Origin: Escherichia phage vB_EcoS_MM-1
Sequence record: PV577657
Direction: 5' to 3' (one strand)
DNA length: 64,000 nucleotides
Of this stretch, positions 326 through 64,000 are shown piece after piece. The notes under the pieces were generated by a model. The model saw only the letters and a program-made list of their open reading frames with translations, was not told the origin of the DNA and ran no database searches. Within the stretch, counting starts at the first letter, position 1; the number at the start of each line of letters is the position of its first letter. The position numbers and the translations under genes were made by a program.

Positions 326-515
326 GGGTTTAAACGCCGCTTTGGAAAACGCATTAATGCAGCACTGGGAAACTGGCTATAAGGATGGTGTTGAATCCTG
401 CGCTACTATGCTAGAAGTTATTGCTAATACCTTAATGGAGAAAGGCAATAAAGAATTAGCTGAGCTATTAGACAGTATTGGGCAAAACTTCAGAGAACAG
501 GTGAAAAATGCGTAG
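294..515 (+). CDS. hypothetical small protein
   Basis: ATG at 294 with GAGGAG at 281-286; overlaps neighbours in the tight packing typical of phage operons. Confidence 0.55.
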   Translation: MAFSKPMLPDKGLNAALENALMQHWETGYKDGVESCATMLEVIANTLMEKGNKELAELLDSIGQNFREQVKNA

Positions 516-1344
516 ATTAATTATTATTAGCGGTGCAGGTTTGAGTGTTGAAAGTGGTGTACGAGCTTTTCGTACTGATACTGCTAGTGGTAAAGCATTG
601 TGGGATGACTATGATCTAGAAGAAGTATGTAATATTCATGCCTTTCGTGGTAATTTTTATCATAAAACCCACATGTTTTACAACAAGCGTCGTGAAGAGC
701 TAAAAACTGTTGAACCCAATCTTGCGCATTTGCGTATTGGTGAATGGTATAAACAATATCCAGGTCAAGTAGTAAACTTGACTACCAACGTTGATGACCT
801 TATTGAGCGTGCTGGCGTCCCACATAGTGACATTCTGCACATTCACGGATATTTAAAAGAGGTTGTTGTAGCTGATAGCTACAATAGTAGCAATAAACGG
901 ATTATTGATGTAGGATACAATTCTATTGATCCAGATGATTATAAATGGGTTAAACCTAATGTAATCTTCTTTGGAGAGCATGCTCCTGCATACGCAGAAA
1001 TGTATAATGTTTTTGATGGTATTACCAGTCAAGATATGATCATTGTGGTTGGTTGCTCTAACCAAGTAATTAACTTCTACTGGGAATTATTTCCTGTTCT
1101 TAATTTGACTGCTGCGAAACTTATGGTTGTTAACTACTATGATAGTGCCCTCGCAGCGGAACCGGTCTATCAAGGTATGACTCGTAGTGAGATGTACCAG
1201 CTGGAGGAACGCGGTATCCCTTACTGGAGTAAAGGTGCGGTAGATGCTTTCAGTGACCCTGATTTTATTGCTCGTGTAGAAGCTCATTTAGAGGGTAGAC
1301 CTTATGTGTCGAGAAGCAAGAGAAACAGGTATGTCCATAGTTAA
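508..1344 (+). CDS. Sir2-family (sirtuin-like) NAD-dependent protein, no zinc ribbon
   Basis: Sirtuin motifs in order: GAGLSVESGVRAFR (GAGIS-ESGIP-FR), LTTNVDDL..AG (TQNID-L), HIHG catalytic-His motif, PNVIFFGE; no CxxC pairs. Confidence 0.8.
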   Translation: MRRLIIISGAGLSVESGVRAFRTDTASGKALWDDYDLEEVCNIHAFRGNFYHKTHMFYNKRREELKTVEPNLAHLRIGEWYKQYPGQVVNLTTNVDDLIERAGVPHSDILHIHGYLKEVVVADSYNSSNKRIIDVGYNSIDPDDYKWVKPNVIFFGEHAPAYAEMYNVFDGITSQDMIIVVGCSNQVINFYWELFPVLNLTAAKLMVVNYYDSALAAEPVYQGMTRSEMYQLEERGIPYWSKGAVDAFSDPDFIARVEAHLEGRPYVSRSKRNRYVHS

Positions 1345-1513
1345 ATCTGTATATACACATCCCGACGATATATTTGTATGGGCAGATGGTAGTTGGTGCT
1401 ATCGCTGTGAGCTGTGGGAGATGGACTATAAATCCGATGACTATGGTGTTATATATGTTGATACGGTTGAGTATGATACGTTCTTAGAAAGGAACAAAAA
1501 TGGAAATAAGTAA
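1331..1513 (+). CDS. hypothetical small Cys-containing protein (start uncertain, alternative 1304)
   Basis: ORF track 1304..1513; internal ATG at 1331 sits after the Sir2 coding overlap. Confidence 0.4.
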   Translation: MSIVKSVYTHPDDIFVWADGSWCYRCELWEMDYKSDDYGVIYVDTVEYDTFLERNKNGNK

Positions 1514-2006
1514 TACTCCAATTATTTTTCTAGATATTGATGGGGTGCTCAATTCGAGCATCTCCCACCATCATGCACCTGATGACGAAAAGATTTTCTT
1601 TGGAAGTGACTGGGTTTTCAAGCCGCTTCTCAAGGCTTTTCAGGACTTTATTCGTCCTTCTCCAATAATGATTGTTGGAGTATCATCTTGGTTCTCTGTC
1701 AGAAATGAGATGGAGAACGTTCAGATTATGACCGGATTAGGTCTTATCGATCGTTTTCTTGGTACAACGGATTTTACTGGGGGTGGGTTATCTAGGGGTA
1801 ATTCTGTCCTTCGCTTCGTTGAAAAGCATAAGCTCAAACATTGGTGTGTTCTGGATGACGCTGGTGCTATGATGTATCAGTATCCAACGGTTATAGTCAA
1901 CGGTAGAACTGGAATAAATCTTCAAGATTTAATGGCTGTTAGCTATATGTTAGAGTTTAGTCCAGATCTTGAAATGTGTAAATCCTTACAACAATTTAAG
2001 GTGTAA
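1500..2006 (+). CDS. HAD-superfamily-like hydrolase/phosphatase
   Basis: N-terminal IIFLDIDGVLN matches HAD motif I (DxDGV). Confidence 0.6.
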   Translation: MEISNTPIIFLDIDGVLNSSISHHHAPDDEKIFFGSDWVFKPLLKAFQDFIRPSPIMIVGVSSWFSVRNEMENVQIMTGLGLIDRFLGTTDFTGGGLSRGNSVLRFVEKHKLKHWCVLDDAGAMMYQYPTVIVNGRTGINLQDLMAVSYMLEFSPDLEMCKSLQQFKV

Positions 2007-2008
2007 AT

Positions 2009-2437
2009 ATGTTCAATAATGTATTCTCTAAAGAAGCTAACCCAATTTTGGTTAACTTTTGGCGTACTCTCCCAGCTAGCCTGTATAATGAGGCTATTAA
2101 CTCCTTGAAAATATGGTGTGAGAATAACGAAATCTCCTTTGCTTTTAAAGATGATATTGATGAGGCCCCCTGTATTGGTTTAATTGTGCAGGTAGAGGAT
2201 GGTCTTGAAGAGATTGTCGGCTGGAAAGAGTTAGATGAAATGGGCTTAATTTTTGCGTTAAACTATAAGCTGTTTATGCCTGCTAAGCATCGCCTAGTTG
2301 TTAACTATAAAACTAGTGAATCTCCTGGTTTTCAGGTTAATGAACGTTATGGTTGGTCTTACTCACCGGAAGAAGTAAATGAGGGGATTCAGAAACTTCG
2401 ACGTTTCGGGTATATGATCCCAGGTTTAACTGCTTAA
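2009..2437 (+). CDS. hypothetical protein, paralog A of a tandem duplicated pair
   Basis: RBS AAGGTG before ATG; shares the block CIG..(W)(K/N)ELDEMGLI(F/V)ALN..LF.P with the downstream ORF. Confidence 0.65.
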   Translation: MFNNVFSKEANPILVNFWRTLPASLYNEAINSLKIWCENNEISFAFKDDIDEAPCIGLIVQVEDGLEEIVGWKELDEMGLIFALNYKLFMPAKHRLVVNYKTSESPGFQVNERYGWSYSPEEVNEGIQKLRRFGYMIPGLTA

Positions 2438-2446
2438 GGAGGCAGA

Positions 2447-2838
2447 ATGGAACAAGTATATTGGCGTCAGATTGACCCTAGTTTGGTGAAACGTGCGGAG
2501 AAGCTGCTACAACGTTGGTTGTGGGTAAGACAAGCCTCCTTCACTTTTCCGAGCAGCAAACAGATGATCCCTGTATTGGTGTTTTCCTATCCGGCTACGC
2601 CGGGGAATGGGAATTGGATTGGAATGAATTGTCTGCTATGGGTTTAATTGTTGCCCTAAATTTCTCTTTGTTCCATCCACGTGGGTTGGCCATACGTCGT
2701 GTGCCGGGTGATGGTTGTTCGCCCCATTTTTTACAGGTGGAAGATGATATTTGGGAGTACACTCCAGATATTCTCGCAGAAGCTAAAGAACAATTAAATC
2801 GTGTTGGGATTTATGTTCCAGGCCTAAATGATGAATGA
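2447..2838 (+). pseudogene. paralog B of the duplicated pair, interrupted by an apparent 1-nt frameshift (frame of 2447 switches to frame of 2515 near 2545-2551)
   Basis: Strong RBS AAGGAGG at 2434-2440 and ATG at 2447; the conserved domain continues in the 2515..2838 frame; adding one T to the T4 run at 2545-2548 restores ...SFTF-SEQQTDDPCIG, aligning with paralog A ISFAFKDDIDEAPCIG. Confidence 0.5.
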
Positions 2839-2906
2839 TTTTTATTAGCTGAAATTTGTAATCCGGGCTATTAGTGCTCGGATTATTACATAATCTTTTC
2901 AGTCGA

Positions 2907-2960
2907 TTGACAGTCAAAATAAATTGTCGTTGACAATTTGGATGGATTATGTAATAATAT
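2907..2960 (+). promoter_or_regulatory. promoter with two operator-like inverted repeats upstream of the HNH gene
   Basis: TTGACaGTCAA (2907-2917) and ATTGTC-gtt-GACAAT (2923-2937); -35 TTGACA 2931-2936, -10 TAATAT 2955-2960. Confidence 0.45.
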
Positions 2961-2977
2961 ATGTATTGGAGGTGAGG

Positions 2978-3430
2978 ATGTCATTCACACAGCAAGAACT
3001 TTTAGATAACTTCCGATATGAAGATGGTAAGTTATTTAGAACTACAGGAAGAAATGCAGGGAAAGAATGTTGTGTTTCTACAGGTAACGGATATTATCGT
3101 ATATCTCTAGGGAATAGGACTATGCTTCGGCATAGAGCAATATTTTTAATGCATCATGGATACTTACCTGATTTAGTAGATCATGTGAATACTATAAAAG
3201 GTGATGATCGTATTGAAAATCTTAGAGAGCAGACAGTATCCGGTAATCTAAGAAATATCAAATATAAGAAAGGAATGCATGTTTACCCTTCTGGTAGTAA
3301 GAACTGGCAAGTGGTATTTACTATTAACCGTAAACGTATAGTTAAAGGAACATATGACAACTATGAGGTTGCATGTTCTATGGCCAAGATGTTTAGAGGT
3401 CAATTATACGGTAGGGAATCAATCCAGTAA
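2978..3430 (+). CDS. HNH homing endonuclease
   Basis: RBS GGAGGTGAGG then ATG at 2978; motif HRAIFLMHHGYLPDLVDHVN...DDRIENL typical of phage HNH endonucleases. Confidence 0.8.
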   Translation: MSFTQQELLDNFRYEDGKLFRTTGRNAGKECCVSTGNGYYRISLGNRTMLRHRAIFLMHHGYLPDLVDHVNTIKGDDRIENLREQTVSGNLRNIKYKKGMHVYPSGSKNWQVVFTINRKRIVKGTYDNYEVACSMAKMFRGQLYGRESIQ

Positions 3431-3438
3431 AATTTCAT

Positions 3439-3468
3439 TTGCAAGGGAGTATTATTTTATAGTATAAT
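3439..3468 (+). promoter_or_regulatory. sigma70-type early promoter (T5-like)
   Basis: TTGCAA, 18-nt spacer, TATAAT (3463-3468), then ATTCCCATAAATGAGAGA, resembling the PN25 downstream box. Confidence 0.5.
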
Positions 3469-3498
3469 ATTCCCATAAATGAGAGACATTAGTAAAAA

Positions 3499-3528
3499 TT
3501 GATTTTGCTAATTTTTCTTGTTTACAAT
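3499..3528 (+). promoter_or_regulatory. possible second promoter
   Basis: TTGATT, 18-nt spacer, TACAAT. Confidence 0.35.
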
Positions 3529-3534
3529 CCGCGA

Positions 3535-3953
3535 TACGGAACAGTTAGGCTGCCCCATTAAGGGTTGTTTTAACTGTTACGTGTTAGTTTTTAAACAAAT
3601 AGTTAATAGAATACTTAGCGATCTACATCCCGTAGGAACCCTGGTAAGGCCTCGAAGCAACCTAGTGTGAGGTGGTTGTGAAGTGAGACGGGAAGAGTGA
3701 AAAACTCTGAGAAGTGATGACGTAAGGTATACTGCATCTAGTATGAGCTAGTACATGAAGCATTAGGTGAGCAAATCTGGCTTAGCGGCCATCCTCAAGG
3801 ATTTGTGCGGTATAGTGAAGCGGCAGTGTAGCGTGAAAGGGGAAGTTGCCACCCCCCTTCAGTATTTGCGATTAATTTGTTGAGAAATTGACAGTAACAG
3901 TTGTTCTATTCTTTCTGAATAGTCCTAAAGAAAACTTATTTCATTTCCAACAC
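3535..3953 (+). ncRNA. candidate structured untranslated leader or ncRNA (no ORF of 60 aa or more on either strand)
   Basis: About 420 nt between promoters and the RBS at 3954; purine/G-rich composition unlike the AT-rich flanks; hairpins GAGTgaaaaACTC, ATCCTcaAGGAT and GGGG-N11-CCCC. Confidence 0.3.
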
Positions 3954-3965
3954 AGGAGTATTGTT

Positions 3966-6752
3966 GTGTTCTCAATCCTACAAGGTCATGCAGGATTTCA
4001 TCGCGATTTAGCCACAGGCATTTGGCGAGAAGTTAAAGCAGAAGACTATCTTTTTGCTAAAAGATTTTCCTCAAAGCATCCTGAAGGTAAACCAGCTTCA
4101 ATGCCCTTCAAGTTTGATGTAATTGATGAAGTTGATCCTCAAACCCTAGTAGAAATGCTCCCTCTTATGAGACGTTTAACGTCTGACCCTCATATCGTTG
4201 CGGTACGAGGTCGATGTCTTGCACCCAAAAATAATGTGCGGCGTAAGAAGGGCAACTTTAATGTATCTAACCCAAGTCATATAATTGCAATGGACGTGGA
4301 TGGTATTGTAGATACAGGTGGTTGTAACAAGTTTGATCTTGTTGGCATGGCTCGACATATTATTAGAATGTTAAATAGTATTAGTGAGGATATGTTTCCT
4401 CTTGATGCAGGGTTTATTGCTCATGCATCGTCTTCGGCTGGGCTAAAACCAGGTATCCGAATGCACTTAATACTAGAATCTAATGTTAAAGTAACTCAGG
4501 GTCAAATCAAATTCTTATTTACATCTATCAATGAAAGTAGTAGACAAAAGTATGGCTTTGATATTGCCGACTTAGCTTATTACTCTTCCGTACAGCTCCA
4601 TTATTTTGCAGATCCGTTATTTACCGATGGTATAGTAGATCCGTTTAAGGCGGAGGGTGCTTCACGTCTGGTATTTGTTAAGGGTTCTAAAGTAAACTTA
4701 CCTAATAATCTGGTTGACTATGAAACAACTAGAGGTGAGTTTAAGGAGGAGTTTTACTCTTTACTCGATCAAATTAAAGGTAAAAAAGCTGCCTCCGATA
4801 AAGTAGAGGAAACTATCAGCGAACTAGAAGAAGCTGAGGATGGAGTGTATCTACGTATCATACCTAAACTCTATCACAGAGCTTTAGAGGATGGTGTTGA
4901 TTTTGCATGGCTAGAAAAAGAAATCCGTCCAGCCTTATCAGAATATATTGCAACCAAAGATAATAGTCGTAATATTCAAGATTACTTTAATAACGGTCGT
5001 AAACAGGCTCTGAAAGCATTTGTTAATAATTCTAAACGCGATATACCTGATGTTTTAAAAGGTATTCCACTTAAAAAGCTAGAAACTAACTCTCTAGAAA
5101 CTGATAACTTCTTGAAATTAAATACTGTACCACCAGAAGGTTATATGACTTTTGTAAAAGCAAGTCTAGGTACAGGTAAAACTACGGCGGTTGTGCGTTG
5201 GTTAGATTCAGGAGTTATTAAAGGTAATTTCTTAGCAATTACCAATACTCGAGCACTGGTATCTTCAAATGCTAAGAAATTTAGTGCAGGACAATATGAT
5301 AAGTCTGTAGATATGCTTAATTTTAAGCGTGGTGCTATTGACCGTATGTCCACAACTATTCACTCTTTGCATAAGTTCAAGAGTTTTATTGGTCAAATCG
5401 ATGCAATCTTTATAGATGAATGTGATGCTGTAATGAATGACCTATTATTCGCCCCGGTTGTTAAACAACGTCGTGAATGTATTCAGGTTCTTCGGGATAT
5501 TCTTGCAACTGCAAAAATCATTATATTATCTGATGGGGATATTAGTGCAGAAACAATTGAAGCATATGGTTCTTTAATTGAGTTTGATAAACCGGTTGCA
5601 TTTTATAATCATCACCGAAAAATGCTATCAAAAGCTCATGCCTACGAGTTCCCTGATGAATCCAGTATTTGGGTTGCACTTCAGACTTCTCTAGAGATGG
5701 GTGAGAAATCTATCCTAGTATCTGACTGTGGGCCGGATGAACTGAATGAGAAGGGCATGGCGTTGCGTCGTAATACGGGTGCGTTAGTTAAGGAAATCCA
5801 CTCAAACTCTACGTCTGATGTAGATATTCGACGTATTCTGGATTACACAACTAATGAGTTAATTGACCAACAAATTGATTGCTTATTATGTAGTCCATCC
5901 GTAACGAGTGGTGTTGACTTCAACTATTTTGATAACGTATTCGTTATTACTAGAACCAGTAACCAAGCGCCAAACATGCGTTTTCAAGCAATCAGGCGCG
6001 ACCGTGGTGCTCAGAACATTTATTATTTTATTGATAAATCTACGAGTGGATTCTCCGCAGGCTCTGAACAATATAATATTGATGAAGGTTGGCTGGAGTT
6101 AGCACAGCAATTATACGCACGTCGTAGGGAGCTGGAGTCTAGGAACTATACTAGTACTTTACGTTATTACTTGCTTGATCAGGGTGCAACTATTGATATT
6201 TTCAGTGAAAGCTGGGGAACTATCGAAGGTGCAGGTAAAGAGTATACAGAAGAGCGAATCAAAGCCATTTTGTATTCAACTCCTGATTATTGTGCTCCAC
6301 GCCATGCAGATGCATATGAAGCTAAACTACTTCTTGTTCGCTATTATCATCTTGAGTCTATTAAAGATGTAACAGTTGAGCATGTTGAGCAATACATTAA
6401 GGATAAACCGAATGATCGAGCGGCATTCTTCCATAAAATGCACGAGATGTTCTGGGAAGATATTAAGAAGTGTTCAAATGTCACTATCAAACCATTCATA
6501 GAAGCTCTGAAAGGCAAGAAGAAAGATTTCTTCCTTAAAACAGGTCAGAGTGCTAACCCAAAATATGCCAGAATGTATCTTGGTATGATGGGTATTGGCA
6601 AGGATATGAACACGGAGAATATTGTAGACTGGTACAGAACTTATTGTAAAATCGAGTGTATGCCAATTCCTTTCAAATTCATGACAGAGGAAGAGAAGGC
6701 TATGGCAGAAGAAGTACTGTCCGAACTTGGAGCAACTAATGAAGACGCATAA
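3966..6752 (+). CDS. large replication protein: AEP-primase-like N-domain fused to a P-loop helicase domain (possibly the replication-origin-binding type protein of T5-like phages)
   Basis: In-frame GTG at 3966 with AGGAG at 3954-3958 (track start TTG 3888 is less likely); DxD motif IIAMDVDG, GIRMHLIL, Walker A ASLGTGKTT, Walker B IFIDECD. Confidence 0.6.
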   Translation: MFSILQGHAGFHRDLATGIWREVKAEDYLFAKRFSSKHPEGKPASMPFKFDVIDEVDPQTLVEMLPLMRRLTSDPHIVAVRGRCLAPKNNVRRKKGNFNVSNPSHIIAMDVDGIVDTGGCNKFDLVGMARHIIRMLNSISEDMFPLDAGFIAHASSSAGLKPGIRMHLILESNVKVTQGQIKFLFTSINESSRQKYGFDIADLAYYSSVQLHYFADPLFTDGIVDPFKAEGASRLVFVKGSKVNLPNNLVDYETTRGEFKEEFYSLLDQIKGKKAASDKVEETISELEEAEDGVYLRIIPKLYHRALEDGVDFAWLEKEIRPALSEYIATKDNSRNIQDYFNNGRKQALKAFVNNSKRDIPDVLKGIPLKKLETNSLETDNFLKLNTVPPEGYMTFVKASLGTGKTTAVVRWLDSGVIKGNFLAITNTRALVSSNAKKFSAGQYDKSVDMLNFKRGAIDRMSTTIHSLHKFKSFIGQIDAIFIDECDAVMNDLLFAPVVKQRRECIQVLRDILATAKIIILSDGDISAETIEAYGSLIEFDKPVAFYNHHRKMLSKAHAYEFPDESSIWVALQTSLEMGEKSILVSDCGPDELNEKGMALRRNTGALVKEIHSNSTSDVDIRRILDYTTNELIDQQIDCLLCSPSVTSGVDFNYFDNVFVITRTSNQAPNMRFQAIRRDRGAQNIYYFIDKSTSGFSAGSEQYNIDEGWLELAQQLYARRRELESRNYTSTLRYYLLDQGATIDIFSESWGTIEGAGKEYTEERIKAILYSTPDYCAPRHADAYEAKLLLVRYYHLESIKDVTVEHVEQYIKDKPNDRAAFFHKMHEMFWEDIKKCSNVTIKPFIEALKGKKKDFFLKTGQSANPKYARMYLGMMGIGKDMNTENIVDWYRTYCKIECMPIPFKFMTEEEKAMAEEVLSELGATNEDA

Positions 6753-12852: not shown

Positions 12853-14325
12853 ATGACCTTGTTTAACGTGCAAGCTGTAGTGTTGAAGATGCTTCTAGCT
12901 TCTGAACAGAAGCAAATAGCATTGGAAACATTCTCAAAACTGCATAAAGATCATTTTAATGACGCTTTCTCCTCAATTTACCAAGCCGTCCAGAATTATT
13001 ATAAAAAATATAACACAATGCCGTCCATTGACGCACTGATGCTTGAGGCTAATAGGAACGCCCGCCTTTCTCAAGCTCTAGTCGTTTTAGCTAACACTCA
13101 AATTCCAGAAGTGAGCATGGAACAGGCACTTGAAGTCCTAGAGGCCGAATATACACAGGATTTATTCCTAAAGCTTCTAGAAACAGACGTGCTTCAAGAT
13201 TTAACAATGCTGGATCAGGGAGAAATTCTCAACCGAGTTGCCTCCCTTCACTTAAAATTAGAAGAGAAAGTAACGAATACTGGAAAAGTATTCAACGCAG
13301 ATAACATGCGTATTTTCCAGAGAGAAGAAGATACCAAACTGAACCTAATCGCTCTTGGTATTTGTAATGAGTTCGACGCTCAAATTGGTTTAGCTCGCAC
13401 AGAAACGTTACTGCTTGGTGGTTGGCGTGGTACTGGTAAATCCATTATCTGTTCAAACATACAGGTTCAGCAATATTTGAATGGAGATATTGCTCCATAC
13501 TTCTCAATTGAGATGAAAGAACATGAAGTATTTAGACGTAATCTAGCCATGCTAGCTGGTGTATCAGCACTAGCAATGCGTAATAATACTCTAGAAGGTG
13601 CAGCTCTGTTGAGACTAGCCAGAACTAGAGCTAGGATGTTCAACGGTGGTGAAGAGCTTTTCGATAACTTCGTTAAACAGTATACAATGGCTAAGATGAG
13701 TGATTTCTACGATATGGAGAGTAAGCTAATAGAAGGGTATGAGCTACATACTCCTATGATTATTGTTTATGACCCTGAGTTGTCTATTACAACAGTTGAC
13801 GTAGAATTAAATAAATTAGTTGCTAGATATGGTGATAAAGTTACAGTAGCTCTACTTGACTATATTAACCAAACCCGACTTCCAGACTCTAAAACCATTG
13901 ATATGTATGACTGGAAAGAACAGATGGTTGTTAGCTCGTCTTTCAAATCTATCTGCCAGAAACATAACGTGGCTGGCGTAGCTCCTTACCAGATCGATCA
14001 AGACGGTAGAACACGTATGTCAAAGGGGATTCTTGATTCCGCAGACATGGCTGCTAATCTTAATGCTGCAAAAGCTGATAATGGTCAAGGTGCTATTATG
14101 TTTGACTTCGTTAAGACTCGTTCTTCTGATAGCGTGAAGTTTATGCCTAAAATGAACTGGGAAACTCTGCGAATGGATAACACTACCAACCTAGCAATGG
14201 AAGATATATCTCAAATGGAAGCTGAGTTCGTTATCCCTATTGAGAAGGATAAGCCGGCTCAACCTAAACGTGCTAAGAAAGACAAAGCTGAAAATTCAAC
14301 AGGTGAACAGGCCAGCGATATATGA
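12853..14325 (+). CDS. DnaB/gp4-like replicative helicase (RecA-fold)
   Basis: Walker A GGWRGTGKS; ATG 12853 with AAAGGAGA RBS (track start 12802 lies inside the terminator hairpin). Confidence 0.7.
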   Translation: MTLFNVQAVVLKMLLASEQKQIALETFSKLHKDHFNDAFSSIYQAVQNYYKKYNTMPSIDALMLEANRNARLSQALVVLANTQIPEVSMEQALEVLEAEYTQDLFLKLLETDVLQDLTMLDQGEILNRVASLHLKLEEKVTNTGKVFNADNMRIFQREEDTKLNLIALGICNEFDAQIGLARTETLLLGGWRGTGKSIICSNIQVQQYLNGDIAPYFSIEMKEHEVFRRNLAMLAGVSALAMRNNTLEGAALLRLARTRARMFNGGEELFDNFVKQYTMAKMSDFYDMESKLIEGYELHTPMIIVYDPELSITTVDVELNKLVARYGDKVTVALLDYINQTRLPDSKTIDMYDWKEQMVVSSSFKSICQKHNVAGVAPYQIDQDGRTRMSKGILDSADMAANLNAAKADNGQGAIMFDFVKTRSSDSVKFMPKMNWETLRMDNTTNLAMEDISQMEAEFVIPIEKDKPAQPKRAKKDKAENSTGEQASDI

Positions 14326-14855
14326 TAACACAGGAAAGGCTAAAAGAGTTATTTGATTACTCCCCAGGAACTGGGGAGTTTACTAGAAAAGTATCTAGAG
14401 GTAATCAGAAAGCTGGTAGTATAGCTGGTTCTTTAAGAAAAGATGATTATATATGTATATGGGTAGATGGAAAGCCTTACTATGCGCATCAACTAGCTTT
14501 TCTCTATATGGAAGGTTATTTACCTGAAGAAGTAGACCATATAAACCGTATACGAAGTGATAATCGTTGGGTTAACCTTAAAGATTCTTCTCACCAAGAG
14601 AATAGCAGGAATAAAGCAGCTAAAAGTAAATCAGGGTATATAGGAGTTAGTTGGAATAAACAAAGGCAAAAATGGCAAGTTCAACTAAGAGATACCAATA
14701 AAAAGAAAATATTCGGTGGATATTTTGAGTACCAGAATTTAGAATCAGCAGTAGATAAGATTAATAATCTACGATTACAATTTCATGGGGAAAATGCTAT
14801 TCAAGAAATATTCGACCCGTCTAATTATCCTGCATTAGAGGAGATAAATTCATGA
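14322..14855 (+). CDS. HNH homing endonuclease
   Basis: YAHQLAFLYMEGYLPEEVDHINRIRSDNRWVNL; overlaps both helicase end and primase start. Confidence 0.8.
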   Translation: MITQERLKELFDYSPGTGEFTRKVSRGNQKAGSIAGSLRKDDYICIWVDGKPYYAHQLAFLYMEGYLPEEVDHINRIRSDNRWVNLKDSSHQENSRNKAAKSKSGYIGVSWNKQRQKWQVQLRDTNKKKIFGGYFEYQNLESAVDKINNLRLQFHGENAIQEIFDPSNYPALEEINS

Positions 14856-26732: not shown

Positions 26733-26735
26733 TAG

Positions 26736-63219: not shown

Positions 63220-63302
63220 TGTGGATAAGTCTGTTAATAACACCCCAAAATGGCTAGGATTCTGTCAAGTCAAATCGTGCTGTTAATAAGTCTGTGGATA
63301 AC
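63220..63302. promoter_or_regulatory. two consensus DnaA boxes within an inverted motif pair
   Basis: TGTGGATAA at 63220-63228 and 63294-63302, each linked to GTCTGTTAATAA. Confidence 0.5.
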
Positions 63303-63535: not shown

Positions 63536-63758
63536 GTGCAAATCCGACATTGCTCCACGGGTGTTACGTGCGGGCGTGTATGTGCGAATCCGACAATTTT
63601 TGGTAGTGTGCAAATCCGACCCGAAAAATTTTTATAGTGTGCAAATCCGACAATGAATTTTCCTAAAAACTCCAGCAATCACGAACTGCGTTCGAATCCT
63701 GTGGGGTATGTGCAAATCCGACACGGTTTTTCTAGGATTAAGATGTGCGAATCCGACA
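63536..63758 (+). repeat. array of six direct copies of GTGC(A/G)AATCCGAC(A), irregularly spaced, each followed by a T-rich tract
   Basis: Copies at 63536, 63582, 63608, 63638, 63710 and 63745. Confidence 0.8.
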
Positions 63759-64000
63759 AGATTTTTGTGACTTCGATTGGAGGGTGTGTGATTGTGTGAG
63801 TTTGGGGAGAAGTTGAGAGAGCGAGAAAAATTTGAGGGAACTGCGGGAGGGGCGCATGTTTGGTGCGGAGCACCTGATTTGCGGGGATTTTGGGGAAGAG
63901 TTGAGAAGATTTGGGTTAATTTGAGATTAGTGCAGAAAAAGTAAAATTTTATTAGCTAAATGGAGCAAAATAGCTTGACAAGTGAAAATTCTTGTGGCTC

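What the first reader, a model, noticed from the sequence alone, without database searches (positions are those of the whole stretch)
2009..2838. Tandem duplicated gene pair; the second copy is split by a 1-nt frameshift in a T4 run
ORF 2009..2437 and the downstream locus share a conserved domain. The second copy begins with a strong RBS and ATG at 2447 in one frame, but the conserved domain continues in the frame of ORF 2515..2838. Inserting one T in TTTT (2545-2548) gives a continuous protein that aligns residue-for-residue with paralog A (SFTFSEQQTDDPCIG versus ISFAFKDDIDEAPCIG). This is either a sequencing error, a recently inactivated paralog, or slippage-dependent expression.
Basis: seen in the sequence. 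Interest (0 to 1): 0.45.

Follow-up and report, generated by a model that had tools for sequence, protein, structure and literature searches.

The report
One-base deletion splitting a T5 accessory gene
In this T5-like coliphage, the second of two old neighbouring sister genes of unknown function has lost a single G, so it reads as two fragments; every related phage checked lacks this deletion, which makes it an ordinary strain-specific lesion or sequencing slip, not a programmed frameshift.

Summary
The window is a Tequintavirus, identical here to Escherichia phage vB_EcoS_MM-2. ORF 2009..2437 is the T5.106 homolog. The split locus 2447..2838 is the T5.107 homolog. Both belong to Pfam DUF7415 / phrog_2502 and are 35% identical (E=1e-21), so the tandem paralog pair and the 1-nt frameshift are real.

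The missing base is not in the T4 run. Relatives read TTTTCCGGAGCAG and the window reads TTTTCCGAGCAG, so one G of CCGG is lost at 2551. The ancestral junction is SFTFPEQQ, not SFTFSEQQ.

None of the roughly 90 distinct other phage genomes I checked carries this deletion. All 28 IMG/VR loci encode an intact 129-136 aa protein. The deletion allele has no exact match in IMG/VR or JGI metagenomes, while the intact allele has 21 and 2.

No X_XXY_YYZ slippery site lies in the frame overlap, and the downstream RNA folds no better than shuffles (z=-1.07). Programmed frameshifting is therefore not supported.

It is the only uncompensated frameshifting indel found in the roughly 45 kb of the window alignable to T5 and AKFV33. 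The downstream frame is still open, so the change is recent. Reads are needed to separate a true mutation (favoured, about 0.55) from a consensus error (about 0.38). The finding is ordinary and of low interest.

The parts
2009..2437 (+). Paralog A: intact 142-aa homolog of T5.106 (DUF7415 / phrog_2502)
   Evidence: ORF list. Pfam PF24187 E=2.9e-35, phrog_2502 E=1.3e-62. Annotated as the T5.106 homolog in AKFV33 and T5. 87-99% identical in the close loci and 74-75% in the four divergent loci among 28 IMG/VR loci.
2436..2442 (+). Shine-Dalgarno sequence AAGGAGG serving ATG 2447
   Evidence: Read directly from the sequence. Conserved in AKFV33, T5 and Kenya-K18.
2447..2647 (+). 5' remnant ORF of paralog B (T5.107 homolog). 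Codons 1-35 (2447-2551) are native, followed by 31 out-of-frame codons and TAA.
   Evidence: Annotated as a separate 'hypothetical protein' CDS in PV577658.1.
2551..2551 (+). Site of the 1-nt deletion: a single G where relatives have GG (CCGGAG becomes CCGAG)
   Evidence: DNA alignments A1 and A2. blastn gap lists against T5 and AKFV33.
2551..2838 (+). 3' part of paralog B in the -1 frame: residues 36-130 plus TGA, still fully open and carrying the DUF7415 core
   Evidence: Translation. Repaired protein 89-95% identical to single-frame orthologs in the 24 close IMG/VR loci.
2638..2838 (+). The CDS that GenBank annotators called for the 3' fragment (66 aa). Its ATG overlaps the 0-frame stop (ATGGGTTTAA).
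   Evidence: Annotation of PV577658.1 and sequence. It lacks the invariant W and E of the DUF7415 core (columns W72 and E74 of alignment A3).
2860..2884 (+). Inverted repeat (9-bp stem) just after the gene pair, near where the T5 record annotates a putative rho-independent terminator
   Evidence: Sequence and T5 annotation directly after T5.107. The equivalence to the T5 feature is my inference. The simple terminator scan did not call it.
1500..2006 (+). Upstream neighbour in the same gene string: HAD-family protein (T5.105 homolog)
   Evidence: Pfam PF18143 HAD_SAK_2, E=4e-20. Labelled 'Sir2' in records.

Best explanation
The locus is the conserved tandem pair T5.106/T5.107 of T5-like phages (Markadamsvirinae). 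These are two old paralogs of the DUF7415 family, of unknown function, at the end of an early-region gene string. In this phage lineage alone, the T5.107 ortholog has lost one G from a CCGG tetranucleotide (window 2551).

Expected consequences (inferred):
- Ribosomes starting at the strong RBS and ATG 2447 make 35 native residues plus 31 out-of-frame residues, then stop at 2645-2647.
- The conserved DUF7415 core (2551..2838) is then not made in its normal form, so this paralog is inactivated or severely crippled. Paralog A stays intact.
- The event is recent, because the downstream 96 codons are still open and the repaired protein is about 95% identical to its closest intact orthologs.

I favour a real mutation in a dispensable accessory gene over an assembly error, but only reads can settle that.

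Shown here: paralogy, the position of the deletion, its absence from the genomes and collections checked, and the absence of recoding signals. Inferred: loss of function, dispensability, and that the deletion is in the phage DNA and not only in the consensus.
For: - Orthologs are intact single-frame genes of 393 nt in AKFV33, JLBYU40, ECOP18 and T5.
- The gap sits at CCGG/CCG.
- A 76-nt query across the site hit 211 phage records. Only the source record reaches 99% identity or more. All 59 other records in the best list span 77 nt, so they carry the extra base. In the spread list the full-length matches also span 77 nt, and the shorter 74- and 66-nt matches likewise span one extra base. The one exception is Kenya-K18. 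The two lists overlap, giving roughly 90 distinct genomes.
- All 28 IMG/VR loci encode an intact 129-136 aa B next to an intact A, including a 63-75% identical subgroup. The pair is therefore old and normally maintained.
- The deletion allele has 0 exact matches in IMG/VR and JGI metagenomes. The intact allele has 21 and 2.
- Over roughly 45 kb aligned to T5 and AKFV33, position 2551 is the only uncompensated non-3n indel found in sequence that the relatives annotate as coding. The other two, at 3580 and 26735, lie in intergenic sequence. The assembly is therefore not generally indel-prone.
- The window-private substitutions in B are 3 nonsynonymous and 0 synonymous (G26W, at a Gly conserved in every B-type sequence compared; C84R; L95F). 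HAD has 0N/3S and A has 1N/0S.
- The gene tolerates lesions elsewhere. Salmonella phage Kenya-K18 has an independent 1-nt deletion in the G5 run 29 nt upstream. Database fragments P0087, P0108 and P0036 are frameshifted or deleted versions of B and A.
Against: - There is only one assembly lineage and no reads, so a consensus error cannot be excluded.
- The 3N:0S versus 1N:3S contrast is not significant (one-sided Fisher p about 0.11, my calculation). Other phages also show 3:0 or 4:1 in this gene.
- Loss of function is inferred, not shown. An N-terminally truncated product from TTG 2515 or ATG 2638 cannot be ruled out.
Confidence: 0.55

Rival explanations
1. Sequencing or assembly artefact. 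The phage DNA really has CCGG and an intact T5.107 ortholog, and one G was dropped from the consensus.
For: - The lesion is a singleton. It is absent from all other phage records checked, from 28 IMG/VR loci, and from exact-pattern scans.
- It sits in a low-complexity stretch of short runs (TTTTCCGG).
- The rest of the gene is perfectly open.
- The comparable Kenya-K18 lesion lies in a G5 homopolymer, a classic error site.
- The window and PV577658.1 differ by a 1-nt G indel at 63223 and a repeat-copy difference near 63592-63697. At least the terminal-repeat consensus of this genome is therefore not fully stable.
Against: - A GG dinucleotide is not a typical homopolymer-error site.
- No other uncompensated coding indel appears in roughly 45 kb compared with two relatives.
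- The same gene carries three private nonsynonymous changes, one at a Gly conserved in all B-type sequences compared, which hints weakly at relaxed constraint.
Confidence: 0.38
2. Recoding. A full-length protein is still made, either by -1 ribosomal slippage of tRNA-Phe on U_UUU (2545-2548), giving SFTFSEQQ, or by transcriptional slippage.
For: - T_TTT_C allows P-site re-pairing of tRNA-Phe in the -1 frame.
- The site lies inside the 2482..2647 overlap where both frames are open.
Against: - There is no X_XXY_YYZ heptamer anywhere in the overlap.
- The downstream 92 nt fold no better than shuffles (z=-1.07, 30 of 200 shuffles as good).
- The two-frame arrangement is not conserved. Relatives carry the same T4 run inside a single-frame gene, so nothing has selected for a shift site.
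- A T4 run is far shorter than the A/T runs of about 8-9 or more known to drive transcriptional slippage (general knowledge).
- Any slippage would be at background level.
Confidence: 0.03
3. Functional gene fission. The 3' part is expressed separately, by re-initiation at ATG 2638 (which overlaps the TAA at 2645-2647) or from TTG 2515, and it acts as a stand-alone DUF7415 protein like the 70-110 aa single-domain members of the family.
For: - Many family members consist of the roughly 55-aa core alone.
- ATGGGTTTAA is a stop/start overlap of the kind that permits translational coupling.
- The annotators called 2638..2838 as a CDS.
Against: - The ATG-2638 product starts after the invariant W and E of the core (WNELS; A3 columns W72 and E74). 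Stand-alone members always include these (for example P0039 and P0045).
- No Shine-Dalgarno sequence precedes 2638.
- TTG 2515 has only a GGAG 14 nt upstream, which is too far.
- The arrangement was found in no other genome, so it is not a selected architecture.
Confidence: 0.04

Closest known systems
Phage T5 genes T5.106 (YP_006934.1) and T5.107 (YP_006935.1); Pfam PF24187 DUF7415; PHROG phrog_2502
   Same: - Same position and order: after the Sir2 and HAD (T5.105) genes and before the replication-origin-binding protein gene.
- Same lengths (142 aa, and 130 aa once repaired).
- About 92-98% identity in most close relatives.
- Both pass the Pfam gathering score.
   Different: Here the T5.107 ortholog lacks one G (2551) and is split into two annotated fragments. 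An HNH endonuclease gene follows the pair, as in AKFV33, and is absent at this spot in T5.
K18_105 locus of Salmonella phage Kenya-K18 (OQ291031.1)
   Same: The same gene is disrupted by an independent 1-nt deletion, and the annotators likewise called only the 3' ORF starting at the equivalent TTG.
   Different: The site differs (G5 to G4 run, 29 nt upstream). That record also has GTG where the others have the ATG start.
Programmed -1 ribosomal frameshifting (E. coli dnaX; the phage tail-chaperone G/GT type)
   Same: Two overlapping frames encode parts of one conserved protein, with a short U run in the overlap.
   Different: There is no X_XXY_YYZ heptamer, no significant stimulatory structure, and no conservation of the two-frame layout. 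In true cases the frameshift is conserved across relatives, whereas here relatives are in a single frame.

Membership tests
DUF7415 (PF24187) / T5.106-T5.107 family | Significant match to the family profile above Pfam's gathering score | tested here: met
   A scores 120.7 bits and repaired B 101.3 bits, against a cut-off of 27. phrog_2502 gives E=1e-62 and 4e-59.
DUF7415 (PF24187) / T5.106-T5.107 family | Syntenic tandem A-B arrangement as in T5 | tested here: met
   The same order and a spacer of about 9-12 nt are seen in T5, AKFV33 and 28 IMG/VR loci.
Programmed -1 ribosomal frameshift site | Slippery heptamer X_XXY_YYZ in the zero frame within the frame overlap | tested here: not met
   None occurs in 2482..2647. 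Only X_XXN tetramers are present (TTTG, TTTT, CCCT, GGGG).
Programmed -1 ribosomal frameshift site | Downstream stimulatory RNA structure | tested here: not met
   Region 2549-2640 has MFE -26.1 kcal/mol against a shuffle mean of -22.7, z=-1.07. Thirty of 200 shuffles fold as well.
Programmed -1 ribosomal frameshift site | The two-frame organisation is conserved in related genomes | tested here: not met
   Roughly 90 distinct other phage genomes carry the extra base here, and all 28 IMG/VR loci encode B in a single frame. The only other split copy (Kenya-K18) is broken at a different site.
Programmed -1 ribosomal frameshift site | A trans-frame protein product is detected | not testable with these tools
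   This needs proteomics or a reporter assay.
Transcriptional slippage site | A long A or T homopolymer (about 8-9 nt or more, general knowledge) | tested here: not met
   The longest run in the overlap is 4 nt. The longest in the gene is T6 at 2727, downstream of the break.
Recent pseudogene (strain-specific frameshift) | Intact orthologs in close relatives, a disrupted frame here, and a downstream frame not yet decayed | tested here: met
Recent pseudogene (strain-specific frameshift) | The lesion is present in the DNA itself (supported by reads) | not testable with these tools
   No reads are available. The exact 66-aa product is not on record in any other assembly.

The most novel reading that the evidence does not exclude
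The deletion is real, and the phage still gets some T5.107 activity. This would come from low-level -1 slippage of tRNA-Phe on U_UUU_C (2545-2549), or from separate expression of the DUF7415 core. Either would make the locus a natural example of a 'leaky' frameshift allele or an incipient gene fission in a phage accessory gene.
Probability: 0.05. Interest if true: 0.3.

Novelty: already known. Interest (0 to 1): 0.08.

Why it matters
It matters little beyond annotation hygiene. The two 'hypothetical protein' CDSs at 2447..2647 and 2638..2838 in this genome are fragments of one conserved gene, the T5.107 ortholog, and should be annotated as a frameshifted pseudogene or corrected after a read check.

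Two minor points have some value:
- T5.107 appears dispensable, at least for propagation on E. coli K-12. There are two independent frameshift alleles in sequenced isolates, provided they are real.
- DUF7415 is a widespread small phage module of about 55 aa. In distant relatives it is fused to a dATP/dGTP pyrophosphohydrolase domain and to a thymidylate kinase domain, which may guide future work on its function.

Tried and rejected
- Insertion of a T in the T4 run: rejected, because alignments place the gap at CCGG.
- Programmed frameshift: no heptamer, no significant structure, no conservation.
- Looking for the deletion allele elsewhere: 0 exact matches in IMG/VR and JGI metagenomes, and the exact 66-aa product is not on record. 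The intact allele served as a positive control and was found.
- Literature: no papers mention vB_EcoS_MM-2, DUF7415 or T5.107.
- Relaxed-selection test on private substitutions: 3N:0S in B against 1N:3S in the neighbours. This is suggestive but not significant.
- The first run_python call failed on a wrong file name and was repeated.

Full report
**Identity of the window.** Region 1900-2950 is 100% identical to Escherichia phage vB_EcoS_MM-2 (PV577658.1; Tequintavirus, Demerecviridae). It is 60-97% identical to 434 other T5-like phage records. Window 400-4450 is base-for-base identical to that record. In GenBank the locus is annotated as three 'hypothetical proteins': window 2009..2437, 2447..2647 and 2638..2838.

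**The observation.**
- ORF A (2009..2437, 142 aa) and a repaired reading of 2447..2838 (130 aa) align over 124 residues at 35% identity, E=1e-21. The similarity runs across both sides of the frame break.
- Both proteins match Pfam PF24187 (DUF7415) far above the gathering score, and both match phrog_2502.
- AAGGAGG at 2436-2442 precedes ATG 2447.
- The ATG frame ends at TAA 2645-2647 after 66 codons. The -1 frame is open from 2482 to TGA 2836-2838.
- The tandem paralogs and the 1-nt frame break are therefore real and well beyond chance.

**Where the lesion is.**
- AKFV33, JLBYU40, ECOP18 and T5 each annotate a single 393-nt gene here, T5.107 or its homolog.
- DNA alignment shows one gap. Relatives read CTTTTCCGGAGCAG and the window reads CTTTTCCGAGCAG. 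blastn gap lists against T5 and AKFV33 agree.
- The T run is T4 in all sequences. The lost base is one G of GG, window G2551.
- The ancestral protein reads ...SFTFPEQQTDDPCIG.
- G2551 is now both the third base of Pro35 in the start frame and the first base of Glu36 in the -1 frame. That gives 35 native codons (2447-2551) plus 95 codons and a stop (2551-2838), which adds up to the 130-aa ortholog.

**How common it is.**
- A 76-nt query across the site finds 211 phage records, and only the source record reaches 99% identity or more.
- All 59 other records in the 'best' list span 77 nt. In the evenly spaced 'spread' list the full-length matches also span 77 nt, and the shorter 74- and 66-nt matches likewise span one extra base. 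So all of them carry the extra base, with one exception. The two lists overlap, giving roughly 90 distinct genomes.
- The exception is Salmonella phage Kenya-K18. It has an independent 1-nt deletion in a G5 run 29 nt upstream, and its annotators also called only the 3' ORF.
- All 28 IMG/VR loci encode an intact single-frame B of 129-136 aa directly after an intact A. This includes a subgroup only 63-75% identical, so the duplication is old and both copies are normally kept.
- An exact-pattern scan for the deletion allele found 0 contigs in IMG/VR and 0 in JGI metagenomes. The intact allele found 21 and 2.
- The exact 66-aa truncated product is not on record in any assembly.

**Programmed recoding.**
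- Within the 2482..2647 overlap there is no X_XXY_YYZ heptamer. Only X_XXN tetramers are present, including T_TTT at 2545.
- The 92 nt downstream fold at -26.1 kcal/mol against -22.7 for shuffles (z=-1.07).
- The longest homopolymer in the overlap is 4 nt. That is too short for transcriptional slippage, by general knowledge.
- Relatives carry the same T4 run inside a single-frame gene, so there is no sign of a selected shift site. I rate recoding at about 3%.

**Real mutation or consensus error.** This cannot be decided without reads.
- Against a generally error-prone assembly: over roughly 45 kb alignable to T5 and AKFV33, 2551 is the only uncompensated non-3n indel found in sequence that the relatives annotate as coding. 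Against AKFV33 the only others are a 2-nt gap at 3580 and a 1-nt gap in an A run at 26735, both in intergenic sequence.
- A weak hint of relaxed constraint: the three window-private substitutions in B are all nonsynonymous. They are G26W (at a Gly conserved in every B-type sequence compared; the paralog A row differs), C84R and L95F. The neighbouring HAD gene has 0N/3S and A has 1N/0S. One-sided Fisher p is about 0.11 by my calculation, and some other phages show similar ratios, so this is only suggestive.
- For an error: the allele is a singleton and sits in a stretch of short runs. The window also differs from PV577658.1 by a 1-nt G indel at 63223 and by a repeat-copy difference in the terminal repeat. 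Some positions of this genome's consensus are therefore unstable between versions.
- My estimate is real mutation 0.55 and artefact 0.38.

**Consequences if the deletion is real (inferred).**
- The main product would be a 66-aa peptide with 35 native residues. In the AlphaFold2 model of paralog A (pLDDT 86.8), that corresponds to only the first strand-helix-strand.
- The 3' fragment called by the annotators starts at ATG 2638, which overlaps the stop codon (ATGGGTTTAA), so re-initiation is conceivable. It would lack the invariant Trp and Glu (WNELS) that open the DUF7415 core in every family member, including the stand-alone ones.
- TTG 2515 has no properly spaced Shine-Dalgarno sequence.
- Loss of function of this paralog is therefore the most likely outcome, with paralog A intact.
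- Fragments in the protein databases show that both paralogs are occasionally found broken: P0087 (a Kenya-K18-type fragment of B), and P0108 and P0036 (a frameshifted and an internally deleted A). This fits non-essential accessory genes.

**What the genes are.** Function is unknown.
- A profile search of 1.84 billion representatives gave 163 hits. Most match only the C-terminal core of about 55 aa (W-x-E-L/M-S-x-x-G-L-I...H-P-x-G-L-A...S-P...D-D-x-W-E-Y). That core occurs alone in 70-110 aa proteins, or fused to other domains.
- Pfam scans of ten hits showed DUF7415 fused to a dATP/dGTP pyrophosphohydrolase domain (PF04447) in P0093 and to a thymidylate kinase domain in P0078.
- No papers mention DUF7415, T5.107 or this phage.
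- The genes lie in the T5 early region after a Sir2 gene and a HAD_SAK_2 gene (T5.105 homolog). An inverted repeat at 2860-2884 follows them, near where T5 annotates a putative terminator.

**Verdict.** The finding has low interest and is already-known biology.

Noticed in passing
L035 (OQ291031.1, Salmonella phage Kenya-K18) about 701-720; alignment A2 column 93: An independent 1-nt deletion in the same gene, in a G5 run (TTGGGGGT to TTGGGGT). That record also has GTG where other phages have the ATG start. Its annotators called only the 3' ORF.
   Followed up: partly
window 2978..3430: An HNH homing-endonuclease gene sits between the T5.107 homolog and the replication-origin-binding protein gene. 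It is present in AKFV33, JLBYU40 and ECOP18 but absent at this spot in T5. Other HNH presence/absence differences are visible around 14325-14852.
   Followed up: no
window 63223 and 63592-63697; window end 63893-64000: The window is not byte-identical to PV577658.1 in the terminal repeat. There is a 1-nt G indel at 63223 and a repeat-copy difference of about 100 nt in an array with a 31-nt period. The window also runs 108 nt past the end of the record. The last 1.5 kb matches ECOP18 at 99.9%. The window may come from another version or arrangement of this genome.
   Followed up: partly
window 1500..2006: The T5.105 homolog is labelled 'Sir2 (NAD-dependent deacetylase)' in several records. It actually matches Pfam HAD_SAK_2, the HAD domain of 'Swiss Army Knife' RNA-repair proteins (E=4e-20). 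The real Sir2 is 508..1344. Labels such as 'exonuclease' and 'tail tube protein' on T5.106/T5.107 homologs in JLBYU40, ESCO40 and others have no support here.
   Followed up: partly
P0093, P0078 (distant DUF7415 proteins, not in the window): The DUF7415 core is fused to a dATP/dGTP pyrophosphohydrolase domain (PF04447) and to a thymidylate kinase domain. This is a possible link to nucleotide metabolism.
   Followed up: no
window 2009..2437 and 2447..2838 (protein level): Pfam reports two DUF7415 stretches in each paralog. The AlphaFold2 model of A shows a roughly repeated strand-helix-strand-strand unit followed by a C-terminal helix. Each protein may itself be an internal duplication of the module.
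   Followed up: no
window 3936/3946, 7472/7536, 9006/9035, 14700/14713, 14770/14778: These are pairs of compensating non-3n indels relative to the T5 reference, that is, short frame-shifted stretches. Only the 3936/3947 pair is also seen against AKFV33, so the others may be peculiarities of the T5 reference sequence.
   Followed up: no
L024 (IMGVR_UViG_2706796320, 108050 nt; same length as Shigella phage SHSML-45) HAD gene: There are 75 private nonsynonymous against 5 synonymous differences in the HAD (T5.105) gene. This suggests a frameshifted or replaced segment in that phage.
   Followed up: no
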